Positions 1-12,282 of a DNA stretch of 41,145 nt are shown here, piece after piece (the stretch's first letter is position 1; each line of letters starts with the position of its first letter). The DNA comes from a virus (lineage: Duplodnaviria; Heunggongvirae; Uroviricota; Caudoviricetes): IMG/VR virus record IMGVR_UViG_2531839440_000003, positions 1 through 41,145 of that record, one strand, 5' to 3'. A model generated the notes under the pieces. It had not been told where the DNA came from, made no database searches, and was given only the letters and a program-made list of their open reading frames with translations. The position numbers and the translations under genes were made by a program.

Positions 1-1020
1 CTACTTACTGACCACAAGCGGTAAATCCAGTGTTGGTGTGATTTTTGTTTTACGATCGTAAATCAACACCTGATTTTCTGTTTTGTGTCCACTGAAAATT
101 TGTTTGTCGCGACTGCTGCCTTCGTAATCTGAAATCCCTTTGGCTTTTATGTCATGGAAGTTGCACCCAAACGGAACGTCGGCTTTTTGCTCGGCTGCAC
201 GTTTGGCCTGATTCCACCAGTTGTTCAGTGTCTTAGCTATGACCTTCCCGCCTTTGGTTGTGTTGATCACATACTCGCATGTGCCGGAAGATACATTTCG
301 GGCTAACTGGATCGCCGTACGTAATCGTGGAGACCATTCCTTGATTTGTTTGGTGCCGGTCTTGTTTTGCTCAATGTAAATCCCTTTGTCCATAATATCC
401 TGCCATTTCAGCTCGAACACATCACCGAGCCTTGCCGCACAGAGATAGGATATCTCCATTGCAATACGTAACTGTGGAATTGCTTCCGCATATATCGCAG
501 CATACTGTTCATCGGTGATGTAAACGGTACGGGCTTTAAGCGTGAATTTTCTGACCCCTTTGCATGGATTATTTTTCACATACCCACGCTCATATCCCCA
601 TCCGTATACTCGACTCAGACTTGCCAGTTCATGGTTAGCCTGGGTCTTACTCTCAAGTCCCCGCTTATCCATGAAAATTCTTACCTGCTCAATTTTTACA
701 TTATCAGCAAGCACTTTTCCGAATACCGCCAACAATGCCCTTTGATGTTGCCGATAATCTTTTTGGGTTCGGGGGGCCAGTTCTGTAAATGCAGGGGAGT
801 CCATAAACATGTGCCATAATTTAGCTACAGTCATTATGTTGTGGAGTTTTGCTTTTTCCAGCTCATAATTTTGCCAGACTTTAGCTACGCTGGTTTCCCG
901 CAATCTTCCGAGCCCTATAGTTCTTGTGCTTCCTTCGGGTTTCCATACGTAACTGTAACCATTCGATCTAACTCGCGGTGGTAGTGCATTATCTTTTTTG
1001 TTTTTTCTTGGTCTTCCCAT
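1..1020 (-). CDS. int: Tyrosine site-specific recombinase (prophage integrase)
   Basis: 339-aa ORF at the prophage edge; translation resembles lambda-family integrases, with an N-terminal arm-binding-like region and C-terminal catalytic region; 3' end of Xis-like ORF overlaps its start. Assignment from recalled family features, not a search. Confidence 0.88.
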   Translation of the reverse strand: MGRPRKNKKDNALPPRVRSNGYSYVWKPEGSTRTIGLGRLRETSVAKVWQNYELEKAKLHNIMTVAKLWHMFMDSPAFTELAPRTQKDYRQHQRALLAVFGKVLADNVKIEQVRIFMDKRGLESKTQANHELASLSRVYGWGYERGYVKNNPCKGVRKFTLKARTVYITDEQYAAIYAEAIPQLRIAMEISYLCAARLGDVFELKWQDIMDKGIYIEQNKTGTKQIKEWSPRLRTAIQLARNVSSGTCEYVINTTKGGKVIAKTLNNWWNQAKRAAEQKADVPFGCNFHDIKAKGISDYEGSSRDKQIFSGHKTENQVLIYDRKTKITPTLDLPLVVSK

Positions 1021-1240
1021 TGTTCAGCGCCTCAAAATCGGGGTCAGCGGAAACCAGCTCAGGTGCTTTTGGCATCGTTGTCAGTCCGTGCGGAATATCC
1101 CTGCGAAGAACTATTGGTTCGTTTTTAGGACCGATTACAAATGGGATGCCGTGCAGCCTTAACTGGTGTTGTTGTTTTGTGTATCGCTTGTATTTCGTGA
1201 TCTCTTGAATCTCTGTTGGCGATAGCGTTAATTCGTACAT
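989..1240 (-). CDS. Putative excisionase (Xis-like small basic protein)
   Basis: 83-aa ORF immediately upstream of and overlapping int; begins MYELTL, reminiscent of lambda Xis (MYLTLQEW); basic C-terminus. Positional plus weak sequence resemblance. Confidence 0.5.
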   Translation of the reverse strand: MYELTLSPTEIQEITKYKRYTKQQHQLRLHGIPFVIGPKNEPIVLRRDIPHGLTTMPKAPELVSADPDFEALNNGKTKKKQKR

Positions 1241-1306: not shown

Positions 1307-3778
1307 TTAAAAATCAACCGGATTCGGGATCAGTTTTTGCCAGATTGCTGAAACGTATTTTGCCTGGTAACGGGCGTCATCAAGTGCATTATGGCGCTCA
1401 CCTTCGAATGGAATAGCCGTTCTGGCATCGAAGTCTATGGCTTTCCCCAGCTCAACGATTGTGCGTACATCGCGATCGTTGTAGTAACGCCACGGGCAGG
1501 GGATCCCCTGCCGTTCGTATGAACGGCGCAAAATCGTGTTGTCGAAGTTGGCTCCATTTCCCCAGACCTGAACAAAAAATTCGCCGGAGTTTTCGTCGAT
1601 AAATTCCCGCAATTGTAACAGTGCATCATCTAACGGGATTTCATCGGTCATAATGGCAGATTGCGCCTCGCGTGATTGCTTAAGCCACCATTTAATGGTG
1701 TCACGATCAATGACTCCGCCAGCAGTTTCCAGATCGATAGTCTTACTAAATTCCGGTCCCATATCTCCGGTTTGCGGATCGAAAAATATTGCACCTATTG
1801 AGATAATCGGGGCATCAGGATTTTTTCCCATGGTTTCAAGGTCGATCATTAGATGGTCACACGTCCTGCTGGTGGATGTGATAACGCGATGACCGTTCAC
1901 CGTAATTAAGGGATCTGCCGTCTCGCCAGTTTCACTATCGCTGGCGTGATCCTGAGCGCTGCCAGCATTCTCCTTGTGTGGGTGTTCAGCGCCTTCCATT
2001 TTCTCCGAATCGTCTTCCTGAACTTCAACCTGGTTCTTGTCATCGAATGTTTCCTGGTATGTTGCGTCGCCCATCACCGCACCACAATCAGGGCAGTTGC
2101 CACCACCGCTCTGACCGCAGGCGGTGCAGATTTTTTCCGGTTCCTGTTGCACTACTGGTTCAGGTTGTTTCGTTTCTGGCTCGTTTTGTTGCGTATTTGG
2201 GCTGTTTTGTTCCGCTTTCTGGTCGTTCTGTTCCGTTTCTTGCTGGTTCTGGTTCACAGTATCGCGGGTCTGGATCCCCTTAACCCATTTCGGATCATTC
2301 GGGTCGCTAATCCCTTCAATAAATTCACCACGTGATGCAGCAAGCAACTTATCGGCGTCAGGCTGGCTGATATTGGCTGCCTGCATAATTTTGTTTACTT
2401 CGTCAGCGGTAACTTTTACCGGTTCTGGCTGTGCGGTCGTGTCAGATGCACCAGTATTTTGTTGTGAACCTGAGTATGTACTGTTTTTGCGGGCGAAATA
2501 TTCTTCTTTCGTGATTTCAGTAGCCCCGGCAGCCAGCGCCTTATCCAGACCAGAAAGTTTGTTTGCGCGACCGTATTTTTCGCCATCCTTGTCGGTGAAG
2601 AGGAAGTAGAACGGCCCCTCACGCTCTACAGATGGTTCGACTTCCACTTTGCATTCGGTTTTTTCGTTGTCCGGAATTGCCGTTTCCACTGCATCAGTTT
2701 CTGGTACTGGCGACGAGAGAGTATCAGTTGCGCTCTGATTTGTTCCTTCATCTTCAAACACGCCCTTTGTAGTCAGGTATTCAGTAATGTATTTGTTCAG
2801 TGCCACAGGATCTTTGTGAATGTCGATCGGACGTTCACGGACAAGGCCAAAAATAGTCTGGCGGTCGTAGCGAAGGGCATCAGGCTGTTTGCGCATCGAT
2901 GCCGAGATACGCTTCCAGTCTTCGCGGTCGTTGTCGATAACTTCATTTTTTGCCCAGCGATGGATGCTGCCGTCAATGTTTCCGGCATCCACATCACCAG
3001 GCCAGAGAGCGTAGGCCAGTTCGTCATCCAGTGTTTTCCATGTCTGCTTGTATTCGCGATGAGTGGCAGCAATGACCGGGTTGATTTTTCCTGTTGAATT
3101 TTCAGTGTTCTGTTGATTGGCTCTGGCGCGGGCGAGATCAACAACAGACGTGTATTTTCCGGTTTCCTTGCGTTCACCTTCGCGACGTTTTTTCCAGATG
3201 CGCATCTCTGCCTGAATTTCGGGCCATTTAGCACCAGGAATACATTTATGCTTAACCCACCCAATGGCGTGCAACTTAAGCTCCGGATACATGGCGTTAA
3301 CTTCTGGCATTTTCATCAACGCTTCAACGATATGTCCGTCGAATGTTGCCATGTCTTCCTGCAACAGTTCCTGTGCACTAATCACCATATCAACGGTGAT
3401 GTTTTCACATGTGTCGAACTTAACCATGACAGCGTTCTGTACTTCAGGGGCCAGCTTGTCAAAAGTGACGTTCATCGGATTTGATTCAGTCTCAACCGGG
3501 ACAAAGGAAGCTGACTCCTCATCCCAGCGGTTTTCCTGCATATATTCAGCATCCCAGGAATCGAGGGCAGGGCGGGGTATACCGGGTTTATCCTCGCAAA
3601 CAAGAAATTTATAAGCGCAGTCCTGAGCAGCCGGATAATGTTCCAGGAATTGCCAGTGAAATTTTGCGCGGGCGCGACGTTCATCACCGGCTTCAATGGC
3701 AGTGGCTACAGCGACTGCACCTTCTTCCTTTATTGCCTGTTCGTCCGGAATGGCGGCGCAAATAAAGACTTTACTCAT
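1307..3778 (-). CDS. Phage exonuclease, C-terminal DEDDh (DnaQ-like) 3'-5' exonuclease domain, with Q/N/E-rich linker and Cys4 zinc ribbon
   Basis: 823-aa ORF; C-terminal motifs DLETMG (Exo I), WGNGANFD (Exo II), HNALDDARY (Exo III); central CTACG...CPDCG zinc ribbon; low-complexity QNxE linker encoded by degenerate DNA repeats near 2100-2300. Confidence 0.8.
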   Translation of the reverse strand: MSKVFICAAIPDEQAIKEEGAVAVATAIEAGDERRARAKFHWQFLEHYPAAQDCAYKFLVCEDKPGIPRPALDSWDAEYMQENRWDEESASFVPVETESNPMNVTFDKLAPEVQNAVMVKFDTCENITVDMVISAQELLQEDMATFDGHIVEALMKMPEVNAMYPELKLHAIGWVKHKCIPGAKWPEIQAEMRIWKKRREGERKETGKYTSVVDLARARANQQNTENSTGKINPVIAATHREYKQTWKTLDDELAYALWPGDVDAGNIDGSIHRWAKNEVIDNDREDWKRISASMRKQPDALRYDRQTIFGLVRERPIDIHKDPVALNKYITEYLTTKGVFEDEGTNQSATDTLSSPVPETDAVETAIPDNEKTECKVEVEPSVEREGPFYFLFTDKDGEKYGRANKLSGLDKALAAGATEITKEEYFARKNSTYSGSQQNTGASDTTAQPEPVKVTADEVNKIMQAANISQPDADKLLAASRGEFIEGISDPNDPKWVKGIQTRDTVNQNQQETEQNDQKAEQNSPNTQQNEPETKQPEPVVQQEPEKICTACGQSGGGNCPDCGAVMGDATYQETFDDKNQVEVQEDDSEKMEGAEHPHKENAGSAQDHASDSETGETADPLITVNGHRVITSTSRTCDHLMIDLETMGKNPDAPIISIGAIFFDPQTGDMGPEFSKTIDLETAGGVIDRDTIKWWLKQSREAQSAIMTDEIPLDDALLQLREFIDENSGEFFVQVWGNGANFDNTILRRSYERQGIPCPWRYYNDRDVRTIVELGKAIDFDARTAIPFEGERHNALDDARYQAKYVSAIWQKLIPNPVDF

Positions 3779-3858
3779 GTTGTTTTAACCTCATTACAGA
3801 TTTAAGGGTGAACAAATCCCTGCCATTGCTGACATATAAAAATGAAACCGGATATTAA

Positions 3859-4062
3859 TTACGGTGCTGTTTTAAGTCCTGCCGGGATTTCGTTATTATC
3901 CATGTGAATAACTTTATCGACCGGATAGCAGTTACCGGGAATTTTTTGTTCTGCTGCGGCAGCCATGCATTCTTTCATTGAACCGTAAATGTCAATAACC
4001 ATGTCAACAGGCTCGCCAGTATTAAGAAAAACAGTCAGAGTGAGGGCAATAGCAGTATTCAT
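3859..4062 (-). CDS. Small protein with hydrophobic N-terminus (positional equivalent of Qin ydfD)
   Basis: 67 aa from ATG at 4062 (AAGGA RBS 8 nt upstream); start overlaps upstream stop as ATGA; hydrophobic N-terminal segment MNTAIALTLTVFL. Confidence 0.45.
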   Translation of the reverse strand: MNTAIALTLTVFLNTGEPVDMVIDIYGSMKECMAAAAEQKIPGNCYPVDKVIHMDNNEIPAGLKTAP

Positions 4063-4247
4063 TGCCAGTATCCTTTTTGCATCGGGCGTAAACGTGCCAG
4101 CATTGAAAGAATGCATATTTTATTTAATAGCTCCCGTTCGTGTTTTCTCTTATTAATGGCATCTTCAGTAAATACAGGGTTACTGATTCTGACACCAATT
4201 TCAAAACAACCTTCAGACGTATTGACGTTTGGTAATAACGTTTCCAT
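4059..4247 (-). CDS. dicB: Cell-division inhibitor DicB-like protein (62 aa)
   Basis: Internal ATG of ORF 4059..4343 with GAGGA RBS 7 nt upstream; product METLLPNVNTSEGCFEIGV...NKICILSMLARL matches my recollection of E. coli DicB in sequence and exact length; lies downstream of the dicF-like hairpin as in Qin. Confidence 0.6.
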   Translation of the reverse strand: METLLPNVNTSEGCFEIGVRISNPVFTEDAINKRKHERELLNKICILSMLARLRPMQKGYWQ

Positions 4248-4430
4248 TATCGCGTCCTCAACAATGAATTTTGTGATGCGGTGCCTGGTGCCTCCAGGTG
4301 ACGTTAACCAGTTAATAATTAACGCCGGATACAGAGAACCCACCCATAAGAACCAATACGGAAGTCAACTGGCCTTTTTAACTGTTCCGCGTGCGCTGAG
4401 CCGCATTCACCGCATCACAAAATTCACTTT

Positions 4431-4490
4431 AAAAGGGGCGGGTATCATGGGAAAAACAAAACGGATACCCGCCAAAAGGTAATCAACATG
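4431..4490 (-). ncRNA. dicF: DicF-like sRNA 3' domain with intrinsic terminator (boundaries approximate)
   Basis: Minus-strand 10-bp perfect stem GGCGGGUAUC/GAUACCCGCC (4437..4446 with 4464..4473), 17-nt loop, followed by CCUUUU; preceded by UUUGGCGGG, resembling the DicF 3' hairpin as I recall it; 5' region differs from K-12 DicF. Directly upstream of dicB-like ORF. Confidence 0.4.
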
Positions 4491-4813
4491 GGTTGTTGCA
4501 GCGGGGTTGTCACTCAGGCGTATGGTCAACCTGACAACCCGGTGGACATTTGCGAGGAACGGAGAACCCCCGCCATACTTACCGCCGCGCCATTTCGCGG
4601 AGTGCCACAACCGGAAGCGCACGGTCGACGAAAATTTAACGACAGGCTATCTATGAACCAGCAACCTCGCCGTGCGCTTTCGCGTTATGCTCTGACTTTT
4701 CAGAGAAATATCCTTTCAGTAAACTGTCAGTGCCGGATGCTCACCCGTGTCCGGCGCACACACTCCACCTCACCTGTGGAGAACTCCTTAATTACCAACC
4801 CTCAGGAGGGTGA

Positions 4814-5047
4814 ATGTTAAAATCAACGCTTATTGCTAAATGCCTTTATCAAAATCGCATGGTAAGCAGCATTTCAATAAGCGAATCTGCAGTTAAAAGT
4901 ATTTTCGAAGAGTACTTTCCCGGGCATGATTTTAATAAATGGAATACCAAATTACCGCCAGCAGTTTCAACGCGTATTCTGAAAGCAACTGAAAGAGCAA
5001 GTACAATTCGCGTTAACTATTTCATTAAAGATTTGTGGGATCTTTGA
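4814..5047 (+). CDS. Hypothetical protein, low-GC, opposite orientation to the early-left operon
   Basis: 77-aa ORF with GGAGGG RBS 5-6 nt upstream; AT-rich codon usage unlike flanking phage genes; 3' end overlaps the convergent gene by 23 bp. Confidence 0.4.
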   Translation: MLKSTLIAKCLYQNRMVSSISISESAVKSIFEEYFPGHDFNKWNTKLPPAVSTRILKATERASTIRVNYFIKDLWDL

Positions 5048-5432
5048 TATCCACAGAGCCTAAAGTATGTGCATATGGATGTGCTATTGTGCGCCCCTGT
5101 AAATTTGCATCGTTTTCTAAATCTTTTGATTTCAACAGAACATCAGCAAGACTCTGAATCATGCAGAGATAATCAAAAACAGTTGCCGTTTCTGTTCTGA
5201 TTGCTGAAATAACATGACCATTCAGGCAAACAGAAATTACCCGTTCATCAATATCGTTTTCCTGTTTTTGATTATCAGAACCATATAGCCCTGAAAAAGC
5301 ATTGCGCACATTACGAACCATATTATCGATGGTTTCTTTTTTGGTGTGTGCCGGGTCAATTTTCACCAGACTATCACCGAGTGTCGTTGCAGCAATTATC
5401 TGGATTTCTTTTGGTAAATCTTTAAATTCCAT
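5025..5432 (-). CDS. Hypothetical protein, low-GC moron
   Basis: 135-aa ORF, no transmembrane segment evident, AT-rich; no Qin counterpart at this position between the ydfC-like gene and dicF-like RNA. Confidence 0.5.
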   Translation of the reverse strand: MEFKDLPKEIQIIAATTLGDSLVKIDPAHTKKETIDNMVRNVRNAFSGLYGSDNQKQENDIDERVISVCLNGHVISAIRTETATVFDYLCMIQSLADVLLKSKDLENDANLQGRTIAHPYAHTLGSVDIKDPTNL

Positions 5433-5454
5433 TATTAGCCTCGTTGGTTAACCA

Positions 5455-6177: not shown

Positions 6178-6585
6178 TTACTGATGTTTGTTACGTTTGC
6201 GAGCTTCTAGTAGCTCGGTGAATAGGCGATTAAAATTCTCAACGCGGGCACGGAGTTCGCTGATTTGTGCTTGCTGCTCTGATTTTGGAAGTGCGCGATA
6301 CAATCGCAACATCTCCAACTCATCTTCCGATAAGTCTAAGGCGCTGTTGAGTGCAACTGGTGGATCTGGTGTTTTATCCTCGTCACCAAACAGTATCCAA
6401 GTTGGTGAACATTGCAATACCTCAGCCAGGCGATGCAAATTTTGCCCACGCGGGGCTGTATGGTCGCTTTCCCATAGTGAAATTGATGAGCCAGATACGC
6501 CAGCGGCTTTGCTTAAATCGTTTTGACTTAAACCAACCTGTTTGCGTCTTTCTCTAATTCGTTGACCTAAAGTTTTCTCGTTCAT
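6178..6585 (-). CDS. dicA: DicA-like HTH (XRE-family) prophage repressor
   Basis: 135-aa ORF with N-terminal HTH (LSQNDLSKAAGVSGSSISLWE) and the segment LQCSPTWILFGDEDK, which I recall from E. coli DicA; divergent from the Cro-like gene. Confidence 0.75.
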   Translation of the reverse strand: MNEKTLGQRIRERRKQVGLSQNDLSKAAGVSGSSISLWESDHTAPRGQNLHRLAEVLQCSPTWILFGDEDKTPDPPVALNSALDLSEDELEMLRLYRALPKSEQQAQISELRARVENFNRLFTELLEARKRNKHQ

Positions 6586-6662
6586 ATTTAGATATCTTAA
6601 TAACCCTTGACTTGAGATTCCTTGAGTGATTACTATTGAGAAAACTCAATTTTGGAGGGGTG
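6586..6662. promoter_or_regulatory. Divergent immunity promoter/operator region
   Basis: TTGACT -35-like hexamer near 6607, repeated CTTGAG half-sites, operator palindrome ATTGAGAAAACTCAAT at 6635..6650, then GGAGGGG RBS of the Cro-like gene. Confidence 0.5.
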
Positions 6663-6890
6663 ATGTTTAAATCAGACGTAATTAATTTTTATGGGACGAA
6701 AGCCAAAGTAGCGAAAGCTGCTGGTGTTGATCCATCTGCTGTTTCTCAATGGGGGGAACTGGTTCCTGAAGGTCGCGCGATGCGCCTGCAAGAGGCATCC
6801 GACGGGGAACTTCAGTACGACCCCAAAGTTTATGACGAATATCGTAAGGCAAAGCGGGCGGGGCGGTTGAACAATGAAAATCACCCCTGA
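6663..6890 (+). CDS. dicC: DicC/Cro-like small regulator
   Basis: 75 aa from ATG at 6663; segment VPEGRAMRLQEASDGELQYDPKVY matches what I recall of DicC; divergent from repressor. Confidence 0.6.
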   Translation: MFKSDVINFYGTKAKVAKAAGVDPSAVSQWGELVPEGRAMRLQEASDGELQYDPKVYDEYRKAKRAGRLNNENHP

Positions 6891-7395
6891 ACAGGTTTGT
6901 GAGGCTCTGGATGCCTGGGTATGTCGACCAGGAATGACACAGGAGCAGGCGACGATATTAATCACGGAAGCATTCTGGGCTCTGAAAGAACGCCCGAACA
7001 TCGATGTTCAACGCGTCACGTTTAATGATGGCGAGGTTGATCAACGGGCGCTGGGCGTTAACCGGGTGAAGATATTCGAACGCTGGAAAGCTATCGACAC
7101 CAGGGATAAGCGGAAAAAATTCACGGCGCTGATTCCGGCAATTATGGAGGCTATCCGGATTAATGATTTCAGGTTGTATCGTGAAATTACTGACGGAAAA
7201 AGCATTACGTACATGATCGCCGGGTTAAATAAAGAATATGGCGATGTGGTGGAATCCGGACTGCTTTTTGCAGATCCAGCTGTAGTGGATCGTGAAACTG
7301 ACGAACTTATAGAAAAAGCAATTGCTTTCAAGCTTGCGTATCGACAGCAATACCAACAAAAAGCTGGATGGAATTATGAGTCTTCTTTTTGCTGA
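6874..7395 (+). CDS. Hypothetical early regulatory protein (possibly YdaT/CII-like)
   Basis: 173-aa ORF between cro-like and replication genes; family assignment tentative. Confidence 0.4.
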   Translation: MKITPEQVCEALDAWVCRPGMTQEQATILITEAFWALKERPNIDVQRVTFNDGEVDQRALGVNRVKIFERWKAIDTRDKRKKFTALIPAIMEAIRINDFRLYREITDGKSITYMIAGLNKEYGDVVESGLLFADPAVVDRETDELIEKAIAFKLAYRQQYQQKAGWNYESSFC

Positions 7396-8341
7396 ACGCC
7401 CACTGGTTATAAACACGCAGCTGGCAATGAAAATTGGCTTAAACGAAGCCATTGTTTTGCAACAACTGCACTACTGGTTGAGAGATACCAACTCCGGCAT
7501 GGAATGTGATGGTGTTCGCTGGATTTATAACACAACGGAACAATGGCTGGAACAGTTCCCGTTCTGGTCAGAGTCAACGTTAAAGCGCGCGTTTGCAAGT
7601 CTGAAAACGCTGGGGCTTTTGCGTTGTGAAAAGCTCAATAAATCAAAGCGCGATATGACCAATTTCTACACGATCAACTACGGGAACGAGCTTTTAGATG
7701 GTGGCAAAGTGAGCGAATCCATCGGTTCAAAATGCGCCGCTCCATCAGGTCAAAATGACACGATGGAAGAGATCAAAATGAAACGCTCCATTGGTTCAAA
7801 ACGACTCAATGTCATCGGGTCAAAATGGCCTGATGATCTTACAGAGAATACAACAGAGATTACTACAGAGAATAAAAACACTTCTCGTCCGGAAGCTTCG
7901 CAACCGGACCCGCAGACGGTTGAACAGGATTTTTTAACCCGACACCCTGACGCGGTTGTGTTCAGTGCAAAAAAACGCCAGTGGGGCAACCAGGAAGATT
8001 TGGCGTGTGCGCAGTGGATCTGGGGACGAATCGTGAGTCTTTACGAGCAGGCCGCCAGCGATGATGGCGAGATTTCGCGACCGAAAGAACCCAACTGGAC
8101 CGCATGGGCCAACGACGTGCGCACAATGCGGATGCTGGATGGCAGAACTCACAGACAAATTTGTGAAATGTTTGGTCGGGTGCAGCGGGATCCATTCTGG
8201 GTAAAAAATATCATGAGTCCGTCAAAGCTTCGCGAAAAATGGGATGAACTGGTTATCCGCCTGGGGCGTTCGTCTGTACAGCGTTGTGTGAATCATATTT
8301 CTGAGCCGGATACCGAAATTCCGCCGGGGTTCAGGGGGTAA
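7376..8341 (+). CDS. Replication initiation protein (iteron-binding, O-like/DnaD-like)
   Basis: ATG at 7376; located upstream of DnaC-like loader; gene body contains iterons 7718..7827. Confidence 0.7.
   Translation: MSLLFAERPLVINTQLAMKIGLNEAIVLQQLHYWLRDTNSGMECDGVRWIYNTTEQWLEQFPFWSESTLKRAFASLKTLGLLRCEKLNKSKRDMTNFYTINYGNELLDGGKVSESIGSKCAAPSGQNDTMEEIKMKRSIGSKRLNVIGSKWPDDLTENTTEITTENKNTSRPEASQPDPQTVEQDFLTRHPDAVVFSAKKRQWGNQEDLACAQWIWGRIVSLYEQAASDDGEISRPKEPNWTAWANDVRTMRMLDGRTHRQICEMFGRVQRDPFWVKNIMSPSKLREKWDELVIRLGRSSVQRCVNHISEPDTEIPPGFRG
7718..7880 (+). repeat. Replication origin: five 17-bp iterons at 23-bp spacing followed by A/T-rich ACAGAGAAT repeats
   Basis: Iterons TCCATCGGTTCAAAATG (7718), TCCATCAGGTCAAAATG (7741), degenerate GAAGAGATCAAAATG (7766), TCCATTGGTTCAAAACG (7787), GTCATCGGGTCAAAATG (7811); then ACAGAGAATA copies at 7841..7877. 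Confidence 0.6.
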
Positions 8342-8347
8342 CGGGCC

Positions 8348-9094
8348 ATGAAAAATATCGCGACAGGTGGTGTTCTTGAGCGTATCCGTAAGCTGACCCC
8401 GCAGCATGTAATCGCGCCGTACCGGACAGTGGACGAGTGGCGCGAGTGGCAACTGGCAGAAGGGCGAAAACGTAGCGAGGAGATCAACCGCCAGAATCGC
8501 CAGTTGCGGGTGGAAAAAATCCTGAATCGTTCGGGCATCCAGCCTCTGCACAGCAAATGCTCGTTTGCGAATTATCAGGTGCAGAACGACGGGCAAAAAC
8601 ACGCGCTGAGCCAGGCAAAATCTATCGCTGACGAACTGATGACCGGGTGCACGAATTTTGTGTTCAGCGGTAAGCCGGGTACCGGAAAGAACCACCTTGC
8701 AGCCGCCATTGGCAATCATCTTCTGGCGAAAGGTCGCAGCGTGATTGTGATAACGGTGGCTGATGTGATGCTGGCGTTACACAACAGCTACGACAACAAA
8801 AACTCAGGCGAAAAATTTTTACAGGGGTTGTGTGATGTTGACCTGCTTGTCCTGGATGAAATCGGAATGCAGCGGGATACGCGCAACGAGCAGGTCACAC
8901 TGAACCAGATAGTCGACCGCAGAACGGCTTCGATGCGTAGTGTCGGAATGCTGACGAACCTGAACCACGTAGCGATGAGTACGCTTCTTGGCGAGCGTGT
9001 GATGGACCGCATGGTCATGAACGGTGGTCGCTGGGTGAATTTTAACTGGGAGAGCTGGCGTTCGAATGTCAGACACCTGAGGGTTGTGAAGTAA
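8348..9094 (+). CDS. DnaC-like replicative helicase loader (IstB-type AAA+ ATPase)
   Basis: Walker A FSGKPGTGKNHLAAAIG, Walker B DLLVLDEIG; follows initiator gene. Confidence 0.85.
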   Translation: MKNIATGGVLERIRKLTPQHVIAPYRTVDEWREWQLAEGRKRSEEINRQNRQLRVEKILNRSGIQPLHSKCSFANYQVQNDGQKHALSQAKSIADELMTGCTNFVFSGKPGTGKNHLAAAIGNHLLAKGRSVIVITVADVMLALHNSYDNKNSGEKFLQGLCDVDLLVLDEIGMQRDTRNEQVTLNQIVDRRTASMRSVGMLTNLNHVAMSTLLGERVMDRMVMNGGRWVNFNWESWRSNVRHLRVVK

Positions 9095-11867: not shown

Positions 11868-12126
11868 ATACAGCGAACGCCATTGGTTTAGTTGGATATT
11901 TACTGTGCCGGACAAAAACGGTTTGCGGGGAAATCTTAGTTAAGTAGAATAACTGCGGGTGCTTGAGGCTATCTGTCTCAGGCATGAACACCAAAAGGCA
12001 GATAGAGAAAAGCCCCAGTTAACATTACGCGTCCTGCAAGACGCTTAACATTAATCTGAGGCCCAATCTATGTCTCACAAATGTAGGTTAGCCTCTTACG
12101 TGCCGAAAGGCAAGGAGAAGCAGGCT

Positions 12127-12282
12127 ATGAAGCAGCAAAAGGCGATGTTAATCGCCCTGATCGTCATCTGTTTAACCGTCATAGTGACGGCACTGGTAAC
12201 GAGGAAAGACCTCTGCGAGGTACGAATCCGAACCGGCCAGATGGAGGTTGCTGTTTTCGTAGACTACGAATCTAGAGAGTAA
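12127..12282 (+). CDS. hok: Hok/Gef-family type I toxin
   Basis: 51 aa MKQQKAMLIALIVICLTVIVTALVTRKDLCEVRIRTGQMEVAVFVDYESRE, closely resembling Hok (..[34 protein letters not shown].AYES); AAGGAG RBS; in-frame upstream extension from 12070. Confidence 0.8.
   Translation: MKQQKAMLIALIVICLTVIVTALVTRKDLCEVRIRTGQMEVAVFVDYESRE

What the first reader, a model, noticed from the sequence alone, without database searches (positions are those of the whole stretch)
1307..3778. Large recombination-module exonuclease with unusual architecture and no adjacent annealing protein
The 823-aa protein combines an uncharacterised about 480-aa N-terminal region, a Q/N/E-rich linker, a Cys4 zinc ribbon and a C-terminal DEDDh 3'-5' exonuclease. 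This differs from lambda Exo or RecE-type 5'-3' nucleases, and I find no bet/recT/erf-like gene between it and int.
Basis: partly seen in the sequence, partly recalled or inferred. Interest (0 to 1): 0.35.

Follow-up and report, generated by a model that had tools for sequence, protein, structure and literature searches.

The report
RecE look-alike with swapped nuclease head
This 823-residue prophage protein is RecE with its usual 5'-3' nuclease (and the partner annealing gene recT) replaced by a T4 DexA-type 3'-5' exonuclease; it is a catalogued gene found in about three quarters of E. coli genomes, but nobody has shown what it does.

Summary
ORF 1307..3778 (-) encodes 823 aa with a Cys4 zinc ribbon (C551/554/562/565), a Q/N/E-rich linker (506-547) and a C-terminal DEDDh domain (Pfam Rv2179c-like, 1.5e-67) that keeps all five catalytic residues. 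No annealing-protein gene was recognised in the early-left operon.

It is not rare. It is the intact form of the K-12 Qin pseudogene ydfE (PHROG 2082). The DEDDh-coding segment occurs in 4064 of 5426 complete E. coli genomes (8101 copies). The recE-nuclease+recT segment occurs in 1750 (1841 copies).

Residues 1-625 are a RecE N-terminal/central scaffold. They are 94% identical to a 900-aa sister protein that carries the RecE PD-(D/E)XK domain and is followed by recT and lar. DNA homology to that allele and to K-12 recE stops at window base 1905 (aa 625). So this is a head swap at the recE locus that also removed recT.

More distant scaffold homologues (phages ZF40, BUCT708) carry a Rad52-like annealing domain instead.

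The closest characterised relatives of the head are T4 DexA (25% identity) and the anti-T4 exonuclease EcD (38%).

Most likely it is a scaffold-tethered 3'-5' DNA exonuclease made after induction. Its biological role is unproven. The family is already catalogued; interest is modest.

The parts
1307..3778 (-). Whole gene: 823-aa YdfE-family protein (RecE-type scaffold + DEDDh exonuclease)
   Evidence: ORF list; PHROG 2082 1-823/823; 99.5% nt identity to genes annotated 'exonuclease' in E. coli B7A and Z0117EC0005
3011..3778 (-). aa 1-256: YdfE_N + YdfE_C module. Predicted alpha/beta unit (aa 1-100) and helical unit (aa 105-225). Distant homologue of the RecE N-terminus (Exonuc_VIII region).
   Evidence: 97% identity to K-12 ydfE pseudogene b1577; Pfam PF27430/PF27432 precomputed on 90-96% identical proteins and named; AF2 pLDDT 91; hhalign to RecE 12-279, probability 93.7%; no PDB or BFVD fold match at E<=0.001
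2744..2995 (-). aa 262-345: helical domain homologous to RecE aa 278-360
   Evidence: BLASTP to K-12 RecE; NCBIfam PRK09709 positions 261-603 match aa 238-626; AF2 helices 247-338 at high confidence
2138..2263 (-). aa 506-547: Q/N/E-rich low-complexity linker
   Evidence: Composition Q 26%, E 17%, N 14%
2084..2128 (-). aa 551-565: Cys4 zinc-ribbon motif CTACGQSGGGNCPDC, shared with RecE (CNACGQTGGDNCPDC)
   Evidence: weak Pfam DZR hit, E 0.12
1903..1907 (-). Mosaic junction (aa ~625, '...ADPLI|TVNG...'): DNA homology to the recE-type allele and to K-12 recE ends here
   Evidence: blastn: window 4544..1905 is 92.4% identical to L003, and 2354..1905 is 77.6% identical to K-12 recE; both stop at 1905; protein identity to P0055 ends at aa 626
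1340..1855 (-). aa 642-813: DEDDh 3'-5' exonuclease domain of the DexA/Rv2179c family; catalytic D646, E648, D746, H796, D801
   Evidence: Pfam PF16473 1.5e-67; PDB sequence hit to a 227-aa 'Exodeoxyribonuclease', 8kel/8ken; alignments A1 and A6; 66% nt identity to a stand-alone 189-aa gene next to int in Salmonella phage 118970_sal3; dN/dS 0.09-0.40
989..1240 (-). Excisionase, immediately downstream; no recT/lar in between
   Evidence: PHROG 1266 excisionase, Pfam DUF4224
1..1020 (-). Tyrosine integrase (end of the early-left operon)
   Evidence: ORF list; relatives annotated integrase
3859..4062 (-). YdfD-like DUF1482 protein, immediately upstream
   Evidence: Pfam PF07358, PHROG 1092
4059..4247 (-). 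DicB cell-division inhibitor (62 aa)
   Evidence: Pfam PF05358, 1.2e-36

Best explanation
The gene is the intact form of the E. coli K-12 Qin pseudogene ydfE. It is a mosaic early-left-operon protein of a Qin/CP-933O/P-type lambdoid prophage.

Shown:
- Residues 1-625 are the RecE-family N-terminal and central scaffold: an N-terminal alpha/beta unit, two helical units, acidic and Q/N-rich linkers, and a Cys4 zinc ribbon.
- At aa 625 the RecE PD-(D/E)XK 5'-3' nuclease domain is replaced by a DexA/Rv2179c-type DEDDh domain with a complete catalytic set.
- The same exchange removed recT and lar, so the gene is followed directly by xis and int.
- The allele is intact, under purifying selection, very common, and carried by phages deposited as isolated phage genomes.

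Inferred:
- The protein is an active metal-dependent 3'-5' exonuclease, made only after prophage induction from the pL-like promoter.
- The RecE-type scaffold brings it to the same DNA substrates (linear ends or recombination and replication intermediates) that RecE and the Rad52-fused relatives act on.
- There it trims 3' ends.
- It cannot on its own form a two-component exonuclease/annealase recombinase. Any strand pairing would have to come from host RecA or from an annealing protein of a co-resident prophage.
- Alternatively its job is degradative, as for its DexA and EcD relatives.
For: - Domain calls.
- Catalytic residues invariant.
- 94% identity over aa 1-626 to P0055, which carries PF12684 and is followed by RecT, Lar, DUF1187, Exc and Int.
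- DNA homology breakpoint at window 1905 against both the recE-type allele and K-12 recE.
- RecE homology of the centre and of the N-terminus.
- The same gene order DicB-DUF1482-gene-Exc-Int, without RecT, in B7A, AST205, mEp460_ev081 and ompW-site prophages.
- Prevalence 4064/5426 genomes against 1750/5426 for recE-nuclease+recT.
- dN/dS 0-0.4 in every segment.
- Scaffold homologues fused to a Rad52-type domain and followed by Gam-like genes in ZF40 and BUCT708.
- Closest characterised relatives act on DNA.
- No promoter-like site between ydfD and the gene.
Against: - No activity, substrate or phenotype has been measured for this protein or any full-length family member in the literature I could search.
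- The Pfam family is named after an exoribonuclease, so RNA is not excluded as substrate.
- The scaffold's function is unknown even in RecE, and its model has no structural relative in the PDB or BFVD, so 'targeting platform' is an inference from its fusion partners.
- The promoter scan is a weak consensus test.
- The 135-aa neighbouring ORF could not be modelled (pLDDT 43), so a very small unconventional annealing factor is not formally excluded.
Confidence: 0.6

Rival explanations
1. Prophage-encoded exclusion or defence nuclease of the 'HREX' type. Like E. coli EcD, the DEDDh head would selectively degrade incoming phage DNA carrying modified cytosines (T-even phages) and spare host DNA.
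For: Kang et al. 2025 (PMC12153337) report that the E. coli DexA homologue EcD degrades T4 DNA but not unmodified dsDNA, and that plasmid-borne EcD protects against T4. An EcD-like 189-aa ORF, recovered through the published primers, is 38% identical to the window's DEDDh domain, E 2e-37. The authors note that DexA homologues are abundant in Escherichia but absent from K-12. That fits ydfE being cut by IS2 in K-12.
Against: The window domain aligns Y766 and A780 with T4 W152 and D169, the residues proposed for 5hmC recognition. It keeps an Asp (D718) where EcD has A78, although the alignment around 780 is uncertain. EcD is a stand-alone P2-like prophage gene, not a RecE-scaffold fusion. The window gene lies deep in the repressed early-left operon with no promoter-like site of its own, so expression in a lysogen is doubtful. 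PADLOC gives only a generic DEDDh hit at 23.5 bits.
Confidence: 0.17
2. An exoribonuclease acting on RNA (for example short RNAs, RNA primers or regulatory RNAs of the dicF/dicB operon), as the Pfam and PGAP names '3'-5' exoribonuclease' suggest.
For: The best Pfam model is named after M. tuberculosis Rv2179c, an exoribonuclease. Many database entries are named 3'-5' exoribonuclease.
Against: The two characterised relatives that could be aligned here (T4 DexA and EcD) are DNA exonucleases. The scaffold is shared with DNA-recombination proteins: RecE, and Rad52-type fusions. Stand-alone homologues sit in DNA replication or recombination gene clusters.
Confidence: 0.1
3. The module does contain an annealing protein, hidden either in the N-terminal 480 aa of this protein or in a small neighbouring ORF. 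It would then be a cryptic complete recombinase.
For: Distant homologues of the same scaffold are fused to a Rad52-type annealing domain, so annealing functions do travel with this scaffold. The 135-aa ORF 5025..5432 has no known function.
Against: The high-confidence model of aa 1-345 (pLDDT 91) has no match to Rad52, Red-beta, RecT or any other PDB fold at E<=0.001. The same scaffold coexists with a separate RecT in the sister allele, which argues against an intrinsic annealase. The neighbours are DicB, YdfD, YdfA, YdfB and YdfC, proteins of 42-72 aa. The 135-aa ORF lies in a stretch absent from K-12 Qin, is predicted all-helical at low confidence, and has only 51 homologues.
Confidence: 0.05
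4. A standard RecE/RecT-type recombinase or a decaying pseudogene remnant of one.
For: Many records name it 'exodeoxyribonuclease VIII'. NCBIfam PRK09709 hits the central region.
Against: No PD-(D/E)XK domain and no Exonuc_VIII Pfam hit. The NCBIfam score is 285 bits against a cutoff of 1269. No recT. The reading frame is intact at 823-826 aa in thousands of genomes with dN/dS below 0.4.
Confidence: 0.03

Closest known systems
RecE (exodeoxyribonuclease VIII) of the Rac prophage, with RecT
   Same: Same slot in the early-left operon, upstream of xis-int. The central region is homologous to RecE 278-592, including the Cys4 ribbon and the linkers. The N-terminal region is a distant homologue of RecE 12-279. 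A sister allele with 94% identical aa 1-626 carries the genuine RecE nuclease and is followed by RecT.
   Different: The catalytic head is DEDDh (3'-5') instead of PD-(D/E)XK (5'-3'). There is no recT and no lar/ralR downstream. It fails the NCBIfam equivalog cutoff. The N-terminal module is of the YdfE type rather than Pfam Exonuc_VIII.
T4 DexA (exonuclease A; PDB 8kel/8ken)
   Same: Same DEDDh family, with all five catalytic residues aligned. DexA is a 3'-5' DNA exonuclease (T4 record annotation; Kang et al. 2025).
   Different: Only 25% identity. DexA is a stand-alone 227-aa protein of a lytic phage with extra loops. The window domain is fused to a 625-aa RecE-type scaffold.
E. coli EcD / 'HREX' exonuclease (Kang et al. 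2025, PMC12153337)
   Same: Same family, 38% identity to an EcD-like ORF. Also prophage-borne: the EcD-like gene lies in a P2-like early region.
   Different: EcD is a stand-alone protein of about 190 aa. The proposed 5hmC-recognition and oligomerisation positions differ. No defence phenotype is known for the window family.
K-12 Qin pseudogene ydfE (b1577); Pfam YdfE_N/YdfE_C; PHROG 2082
   Same: Aa 1-256 are 97% identical. Same neighbours dicB and ydfD. Full-length PHROG match.
   Different: The K-12 copy is truncated by IS2 after aa 256, so it lacks the centre and the DEDDh head.
ZF40 gp07 / BUCT708 710-aa protein (PHROG 2489, annotated 'exonuclease')
   Same: Homologous N-terminal scaffold, 24-29% identity over about 300 aa. 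Same position upstream of xis-int.
   Different: Their C-terminal head is a Rad52/Rad22-type annealing domain, and a Mu-Gam-like or Gp157 gene follows. They have no nuclease domain.

Membership tests
DEDDh exonucleases, Rv2179c-like/DexA family (Pfam PF16473) | Profile match above the curated cutoff | tested here: met
   227.1 bits against a cutoff of 27, aa 642-813 covering model positions 2-177 of 177
DEDDh exonucleases, Rv2179c-like/DexA family (Pfam PF16473) | Catalytic D, E, D, D and H in the three Exo motifs | tested here: met
   D646, E648, D746, H796 and D801 are invariant against T4 DexA D7/E9/D119/H186/D191 and four other homologues
DEDDh exonucleases, Rv2179c-like/DexA family (Pfam PF16473) | 3'-5' exonuclease activity and substrate (DNA or RNA) | not testable with these tools
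   Needs biochemistry
RecE / exodeoxyribonuclease VIII | C-terminal PD-(D/E)XK nuclease domain (Pfam PF12684/DUF3799) | tested here: not met
   No hit in the window protein. Present in K-12 RecE, P0055, HK225 gp34 and the Klebsiella phage homologue.
RecE / exodeoxyribonuclease VIII | NCBIfam equivalog PRK09709 above its cutoff | tested here: not met
   285.3 bits against a cutoff of 1269; only model positions 261-603 are matched
RecE / exodeoxyribonuclease VIII | Central region with Cys4 ribbon, and N-terminal region | tested here: met
   BLASTP 9e-63 to RecE 278-592; hhalign probability 93.7% to RecE 12-279
RecE / exodeoxyribonuclease VIII | Cognate recT immediately downstream | tested here: not met
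   xis follows after 66 bp. No RecT hit among the neighbours. recT is present after the sister allele.
Two-component phage recombinase (5'-3' exonuclease + single-strand annealing protein) | An annealing-protein gene (Red-beta/RecT, Erf, Rad52/Sak, Sak4, Gp2.5) in the module | tested here: not met
   None by Pfam or PHROGs among all early-left ORFs, and none in the PGAP annotation of a relative. The 135-aa ORF is unresolved.
Two-component phage recombinase (5'-3' exonuclease + single-strand annealing protein) | Position between the kil/dicB-type genes and xis-int in the pL operon | tested here: met
   Gene order, compared with Rac and HK225
YdfE family (Pfam PF27430 + PF27432; PHROG 2082) | Full-length profile match and near-identity to the name-giving protein | tested here: met
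   PHROG 2082 at 1866 bits, 1-823 of 823; 97% identity to K-12 YdfE. PF27430/PF27432 are precomputed on 90-96% identical proteins; these two models are absent from the local Pfam copy, so they were not run directly.
HREX / EcD defence exonuclease | Homology to EcD | tested here: met
   38% identity, E 2e-37, to an EcD-like ORF recovered with the published primers
HREX / EcD defence exonuclease | Trp and Asp proposed for 5hmC recognition (T4 W152, D169), and loss of the tetramer Asp (T4 D90; A78 in EcD) | tested here: inconclusive
   The window has Y766, A780 and D718 at the aligned columns. The loop around 780 aligns poorly.
HREX / EcD defence exonuclease | Protection against T-even phages; selectivity for modified DNA | not testable with these tools
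   Needs plaque assays and nuclease assays

The most novel reading that the evidence does not exclude
The RecE-type scaffold is a general delivery platform for phage DNA-end transactions, and different phages plug alternative heads into it: a 5'-3' nuclease with RecT, a Rad52-type annealase with a Gam-like partner, or a 3'-5' exonuclease alone. The 3'-5' version, which is the commonest in E. coli, would then define a single-protein, annealase-independent end-processing pathway. It might work with host RecA, or it might antagonise the RecET/Red-type recombination of co-resident or superinfecting lambdoid phages by removing their 3' tails. Either would be a distinct third type of lambdoid 'recombination module'.
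Probability: 0.2. Interest if true: 0.55.

Novelty: already known. Interest (0 to 1): 0.3.

Why it matters
This may be the commonest gene in the recombination-module slot of E. coli lambdoid prophages: 8101 copies in 5426 genomes. It includes the prophages of enterohaemorrhagic strains, whose mosaic evolution depends on recombination between prophages. Yet it has no assigned function and is often mislabelled 'exodeoxyribonuclease VIII'.

Knowing that it is RecE with the nuclease head swapped and recT lost has three consequences.
- It corrects the annotation.
- It shows that most such prophages lack their own annealase.
- It gives a clean natural experiment for the unexplained RecE N-terminal region: two alleles 94% identical up to residue 626 with different heads.

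It also places the 'bacterial' DexA homologues of the recent HREX defence proposal on prophages.

Tried and rejected
- Literature. Searches for Rv2179c+prophage, ydfE+Qin+exonuclease, YdfE alone, PF16473 and mEp460+recombinase gave nothing on function. One search was wasted because 'RecE' matched 'receptor' under word-start matching.
- PDB by sequence. The only hits were 8kel/8ken, a 227-aa 'Exodeoxyribonuclease' taken to be T4 DexA, at 1e-6. There was none for the Rad52-like profile A3 or for the 135-aa ORF.
- Fold search of the scaffold model. Nothing at E<=0.001 in either the PDB or BFVD. Only small uncharacterised phage proteins of 60-80 aa resemble the first alpha/beta unit.
- Structure of the 135-aa neighbouring ORF. 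pLDDT was 43, which is unusable, so I ran no further search on it.
- Finding EcD by its reverse primer. The single viral and single genome hits were in unrelated contigs, and none of the 10 loci from the three collections held the forward primer. The forward primer with a degenerate extension did find it in IMG/VR.
- DicF. Rfam at the gathering threshold did not find it in the window. A permissive scan gave only a sub-threshold STnc100 hit.
- Promoter and terminator scan. Counts do not exceed the shuffles, so it is only weak negative evidence.
- PADLOC. No defence-system membership.
Full report
**1. The observation**

The minus-strand ORF 1307..3778 is real. It starts with ATG, has GAGG about 10 nt upstream, and encodes 823 aa. 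PHROG 2082 ('exonuclease') matches it from residue 1 to 823 of an 823-position profile.

- The C-terminal domain is a DEDDh exonuclease: Pfam PF16473 'Rv2179c-like', aa 642-813, E 1.5e-67.
- D646, E648, D746, H796 and D801 align with the catalytic D7, E9, D119, H186 and D191 of T4 DexA. They are invariant in all homologues aligned.
- The Cys4 motif is C551-x2-C554-x7-C562-x2-C565.
- The linker 506-547 is 26% Q, 17% E and 14% N.

**2. Surroundings**

The window is a lambdoid prophage of the Qin/CP-933O/P type. On the minus strand, read in the direction of transcription from the immunity region, the genes are:

- a DicA-like repressor (6178..6585)
- YdfA/DUF1391, a YdfB-like ORF and YdfC
- a 135-aa ORF of unknown function (5025..5432)
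- DicB (4059..4247) and YdfD/DUF1482 (3859..4062)
- the 823-aa gene, then excisionase (989..1240) and integrase (1..1020)

None of the small proteins hits an annealing-protein family in Pfam or PHROGs. PGAP annotation of a 96.5%-identical relative (strain AST205) shows no annealing protein anywhere in the early region. It does show a RusA resolvase and a DUF968 protein in the nin-like region. No promoter-like site lies between ydfD and the gene, although that scan has little power.

**3. What the protein is**

- Residues 1-256 are 97% identical to the K-12 Qin pseudogene product YdfE (b1577), which IS2 truncates at that point.
- Residues 262-626 align with K-12 RecE residues 278-592 at 39% identity overall. 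From about residue 470 the match is near-identical, and it includes the zinc ribbon and the acidic tail. NCBIfam's RecE model matches only this centre and stays far below its cutoff (285 against 1269 bits).
- A profile of the N-terminal 345 residues and their homologues matches RecE residues 12-279 (hhalign probability 93.7%, E 1.9e-7, 232 columns).

The whole of residues 1-625 is therefore a RecE-type N-terminal and central scaffold. The 'uncharacterised N-terminal region', the linker and the zinc ribbon are RecE features, not peculiarities of this protein. [quoted passage not shown]

**4. The head swap**

Among the closest database relatives are 900-aa proteins, such as P0055, that are 94% identical to the window protein over residues 1-626. 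After that point they carry Pfam PF12684, the PD-(D/E)XK nuclease domain of RecE. On its contig P0055 sits in the same place, after dicB and DUF1482, but is followed by RecT, Lar, DUF1187, Exc and Int.

At the DNA level, homology between the window and that locus (92.4%) ends exactly at window base 1905. Homology to K-12 recE (77.6%) ends at the same base, which is residue 625.

Downstream of the junction, window 1849..1325 is 66% identical to a stand-alone 189-aa DEDDh gene. That gene lies just upstream of the integrase in Salmonella phage 118970_sal3.

The window gene is thus one of two alleles at the recE locus. In this one the RecE nuclease domain, recT and lar are replaced by a DexA-type exonuclease domain, and xis follows directly. 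The same order, without recT, is seen in strains B7A and AST205, in phage mEp460_ev081 and in ompW-site prophages.

**5. How common it is**

- The full gene matches in 4800 of 5426 complete E. coli genomes.
- The DEDDh-coding segment alone matches in 4064 genomes at 8101 places.
- The recE-nuclease+recT segment matches in 1750 genomes at 1841 places.
- Records deposited as phage genomes carry it: mEp460_ev081, HannyBb, PhiR42_1, Evi and the PPompW series.
- Pairwise dN/dS is 0-0.4 in every segment. This includes a divergent DEDDh allele with dS 1.0 and dN/dS 0.18.

The gene is therefore functional, selected and ordinary in E. coli. It is not a rarity.

**6. The scaffold in other phages**

The N-terminal module is a small family: 173 representatives at 50% clustering among 1.84 billion proteins. 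An AlphaFold2 model of residues 1-345 is confident (mean pLDDT 91). It shows an alpha/beta unit (1-100) and two helical units (105-225 and 245-340). It has no match at E<=0.001 in the PDB or in BFVD. So it resembles no solved annealase or nuclease.

Of 31 longer homologues, 12 end in a conserved domain of about 280 aa with the motif KKSLTDAxKKALSxLGF. These belong to the same family as Pectobacterium phage ZF40 gp07 and the 710-aa protein of Stenotrophomonas phage BUCT708, both PHROG 2489 and annotated 'exonuclease'. A profile of this domain finds stand-alone proteins of about 243 aa at about 1e-66. Several of those pass Pfam's cutoff for Rad52_Rad22: 28.3, 23.8 and 23.0 bits against 20.3.

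In ZF40 and BUCT708 the next gene is a Mu-Gam-like or Gp157 protein, followed by xis and int.

The same scaffold is thus joined in different phages to a 5'-3' nuclease (with RecT), to a Rad52-type annealase (with a Gam-like partner), or to a 3'-5' exonuclease (alone). This is the best evidence here that the scaffold belongs to DNA-end and recombination transactions. It also shows that the window's version specifically lacks the annealing component.

**7. The head's relatives**

The DEDDh domain matches 1612 phage records, from T4-type DexA to stand-alone genes in replication and recombination clusters. The only solved relative found by sequence is a 227-aa 'Exodeoxyribonuclease' (8kel/8ken), the same length as T4 DexA and taken here to be DexA; T4 DexA itself aligns at 25% identity.

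Kang et al. 2025 (PMC12153337) report three things:

- DexA switches between cutting unmodified and 5hmC DNA.
- An E. coli homologue, EcD, cuts T4 DNA but not unmodified DNA.
- Plasmid-borne EcD protects against T4. They call this 'HREX'.

Using their primer sequences I recovered an EcD-like 189-aa ORF from IMG/VR contigs. It is 38% identical to the window's domain. It lies in a P2-like prophage early region between the integrase/repressor and a Dam methylase/gpA-like gene.

In the window protein the positions aligned with T4 W152, D169 and D90 are Y766, A780 and D718. The proposed 5hmC-recognition and dimer-only signature is therefore not clearly present.

**8. Interpretation**

Established:

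- identity, mosaic structure and breakpoint
- absence of recT
- an intact catalytic site
- purifying selection and prevalence

Inferred:

- It is an active 3'-5' DNA exonuclease made after induction.
- The RecE-type scaffold directs it to DNA ends or recombination intermediates.
- It cannot be a self-sufficient exonuclease/annealase recombinase.

The biological role is open. It could be end trimming in a RecA-dependent or trans-complemented pathway, antagonism of 3'-tailed intermediates, DexA-like DNA degradation, or exclusion of modified-DNA phages. I give the main explanation 0.6, most of which rests on the identity and enzymology part. The rivals are HREX-type defence 0.17, RNase 0.1, hidden annealase 0.05, and standard RecET or pseudogene 0.03.

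**9. Novelty**

The family is already catalogued in PHROGs, Pfam and PGAP. The window's copy is 99.5% identical to annotated genes. I found no publication that assigns it a function or describes the head swap. The finding is therefore a correct description of a known, common, functionally uncharacterised prophage gene, and interest is modest (0.3).

The most novel reading not excluded is that the 3'-5' allele defines an annealase-independent end-processing or anti-recombination module on a shared RecE-type delivery scaffold (probability about 0.2).

Noticed in passing
L012:3974-6139 (Pectobacterium phage ZF40 gp07); L011:4974-7106 (Stenotrophomonas phage BUCT708); proteins P0130-P0224: Proteins of about 700 aa annotated 'exonuclease' or 'hypothetical' (PHROG 2489) combine the YdfE/RecE-type N-terminal scaffold with a C-terminal Rad52/Rad22-type annealing domain (motif KKSLTDAxKKALSxLGF). 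No nuclease domain was detected. A Mu-Gam-like or Gp157 gene follows them. The 'exonuclease' label looks wrong.
   Followed up: partly
L031:6401-6991 (IMG/VR UViG_2671181127_000013), also L026-L030: The 'bacterial' anti-T4 exonuclease EcD of Kang et al. 2025 corresponds to a stand-alone gene of 189-196 aa in the early region of a P2-like prophage (integrase, repressor, EcD-like gene, Dam-type methyltransferase, gpA-like nickase). The paper does not mention prophages. Its remark that K-12 lacks DexA homologues fits IS2 truncating ydfE in K-12.
   Followed up: partly
window 4801..5434: A stretch absent from K-12 Qin, where homology resumes on both sides. It carries a 135-aa ORF on the minus strand (5025..5432, PHROG 1363, 51 homologues, all named ones from E. 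coli or Salmonella) and a converging 77-aa ORF on the plus strand (4814..5047, PHROG 10348, full-length match). Both are of unknown function. The AF2 model of the 135-aa protein was unusable (pLDDT 43).
   Followed up: partly
window about 4263..4480 (-): This region is homologous to the dicF region of Qin (dicF maps to about 4428..4480 by the alignment) and 80% identical to the kilS region of Rac. There is a terminator-like hairpin at 4460-4473. Rfam did not call DicF and gave only a sub-threshold STnc100 hit at 4270..4424.
   Followed up: partly
window 11957..12132 (+) and 16844..17090 (+): A sok antitoxin RNA of a hok/sok-type toxin-antitoxin locus (120 bits), and three tRNA genes downstream of the nin-like region, as in many Stx-type lambdoid prophages.
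   Followed up: no
window 6636..9094 (+): The rightward early operon is of the Rac/CP-933O type: a Cro/DicC-like protein, a 173-aa YdaT-family protein, a replication protein that related phage records label O-like, and a 248-aa protein whose counterpart in AST205 is annotated only 'ATP-binding protein' (DnaC-like is my reading of its sequence).
   Followed up: no
P0126 (702 aa) and PHROG 26058: A fourth C-terminal head of unknown type is attached to the same scaffold (46% identical N-terminus). It was not analysed further.
   Followed up: no
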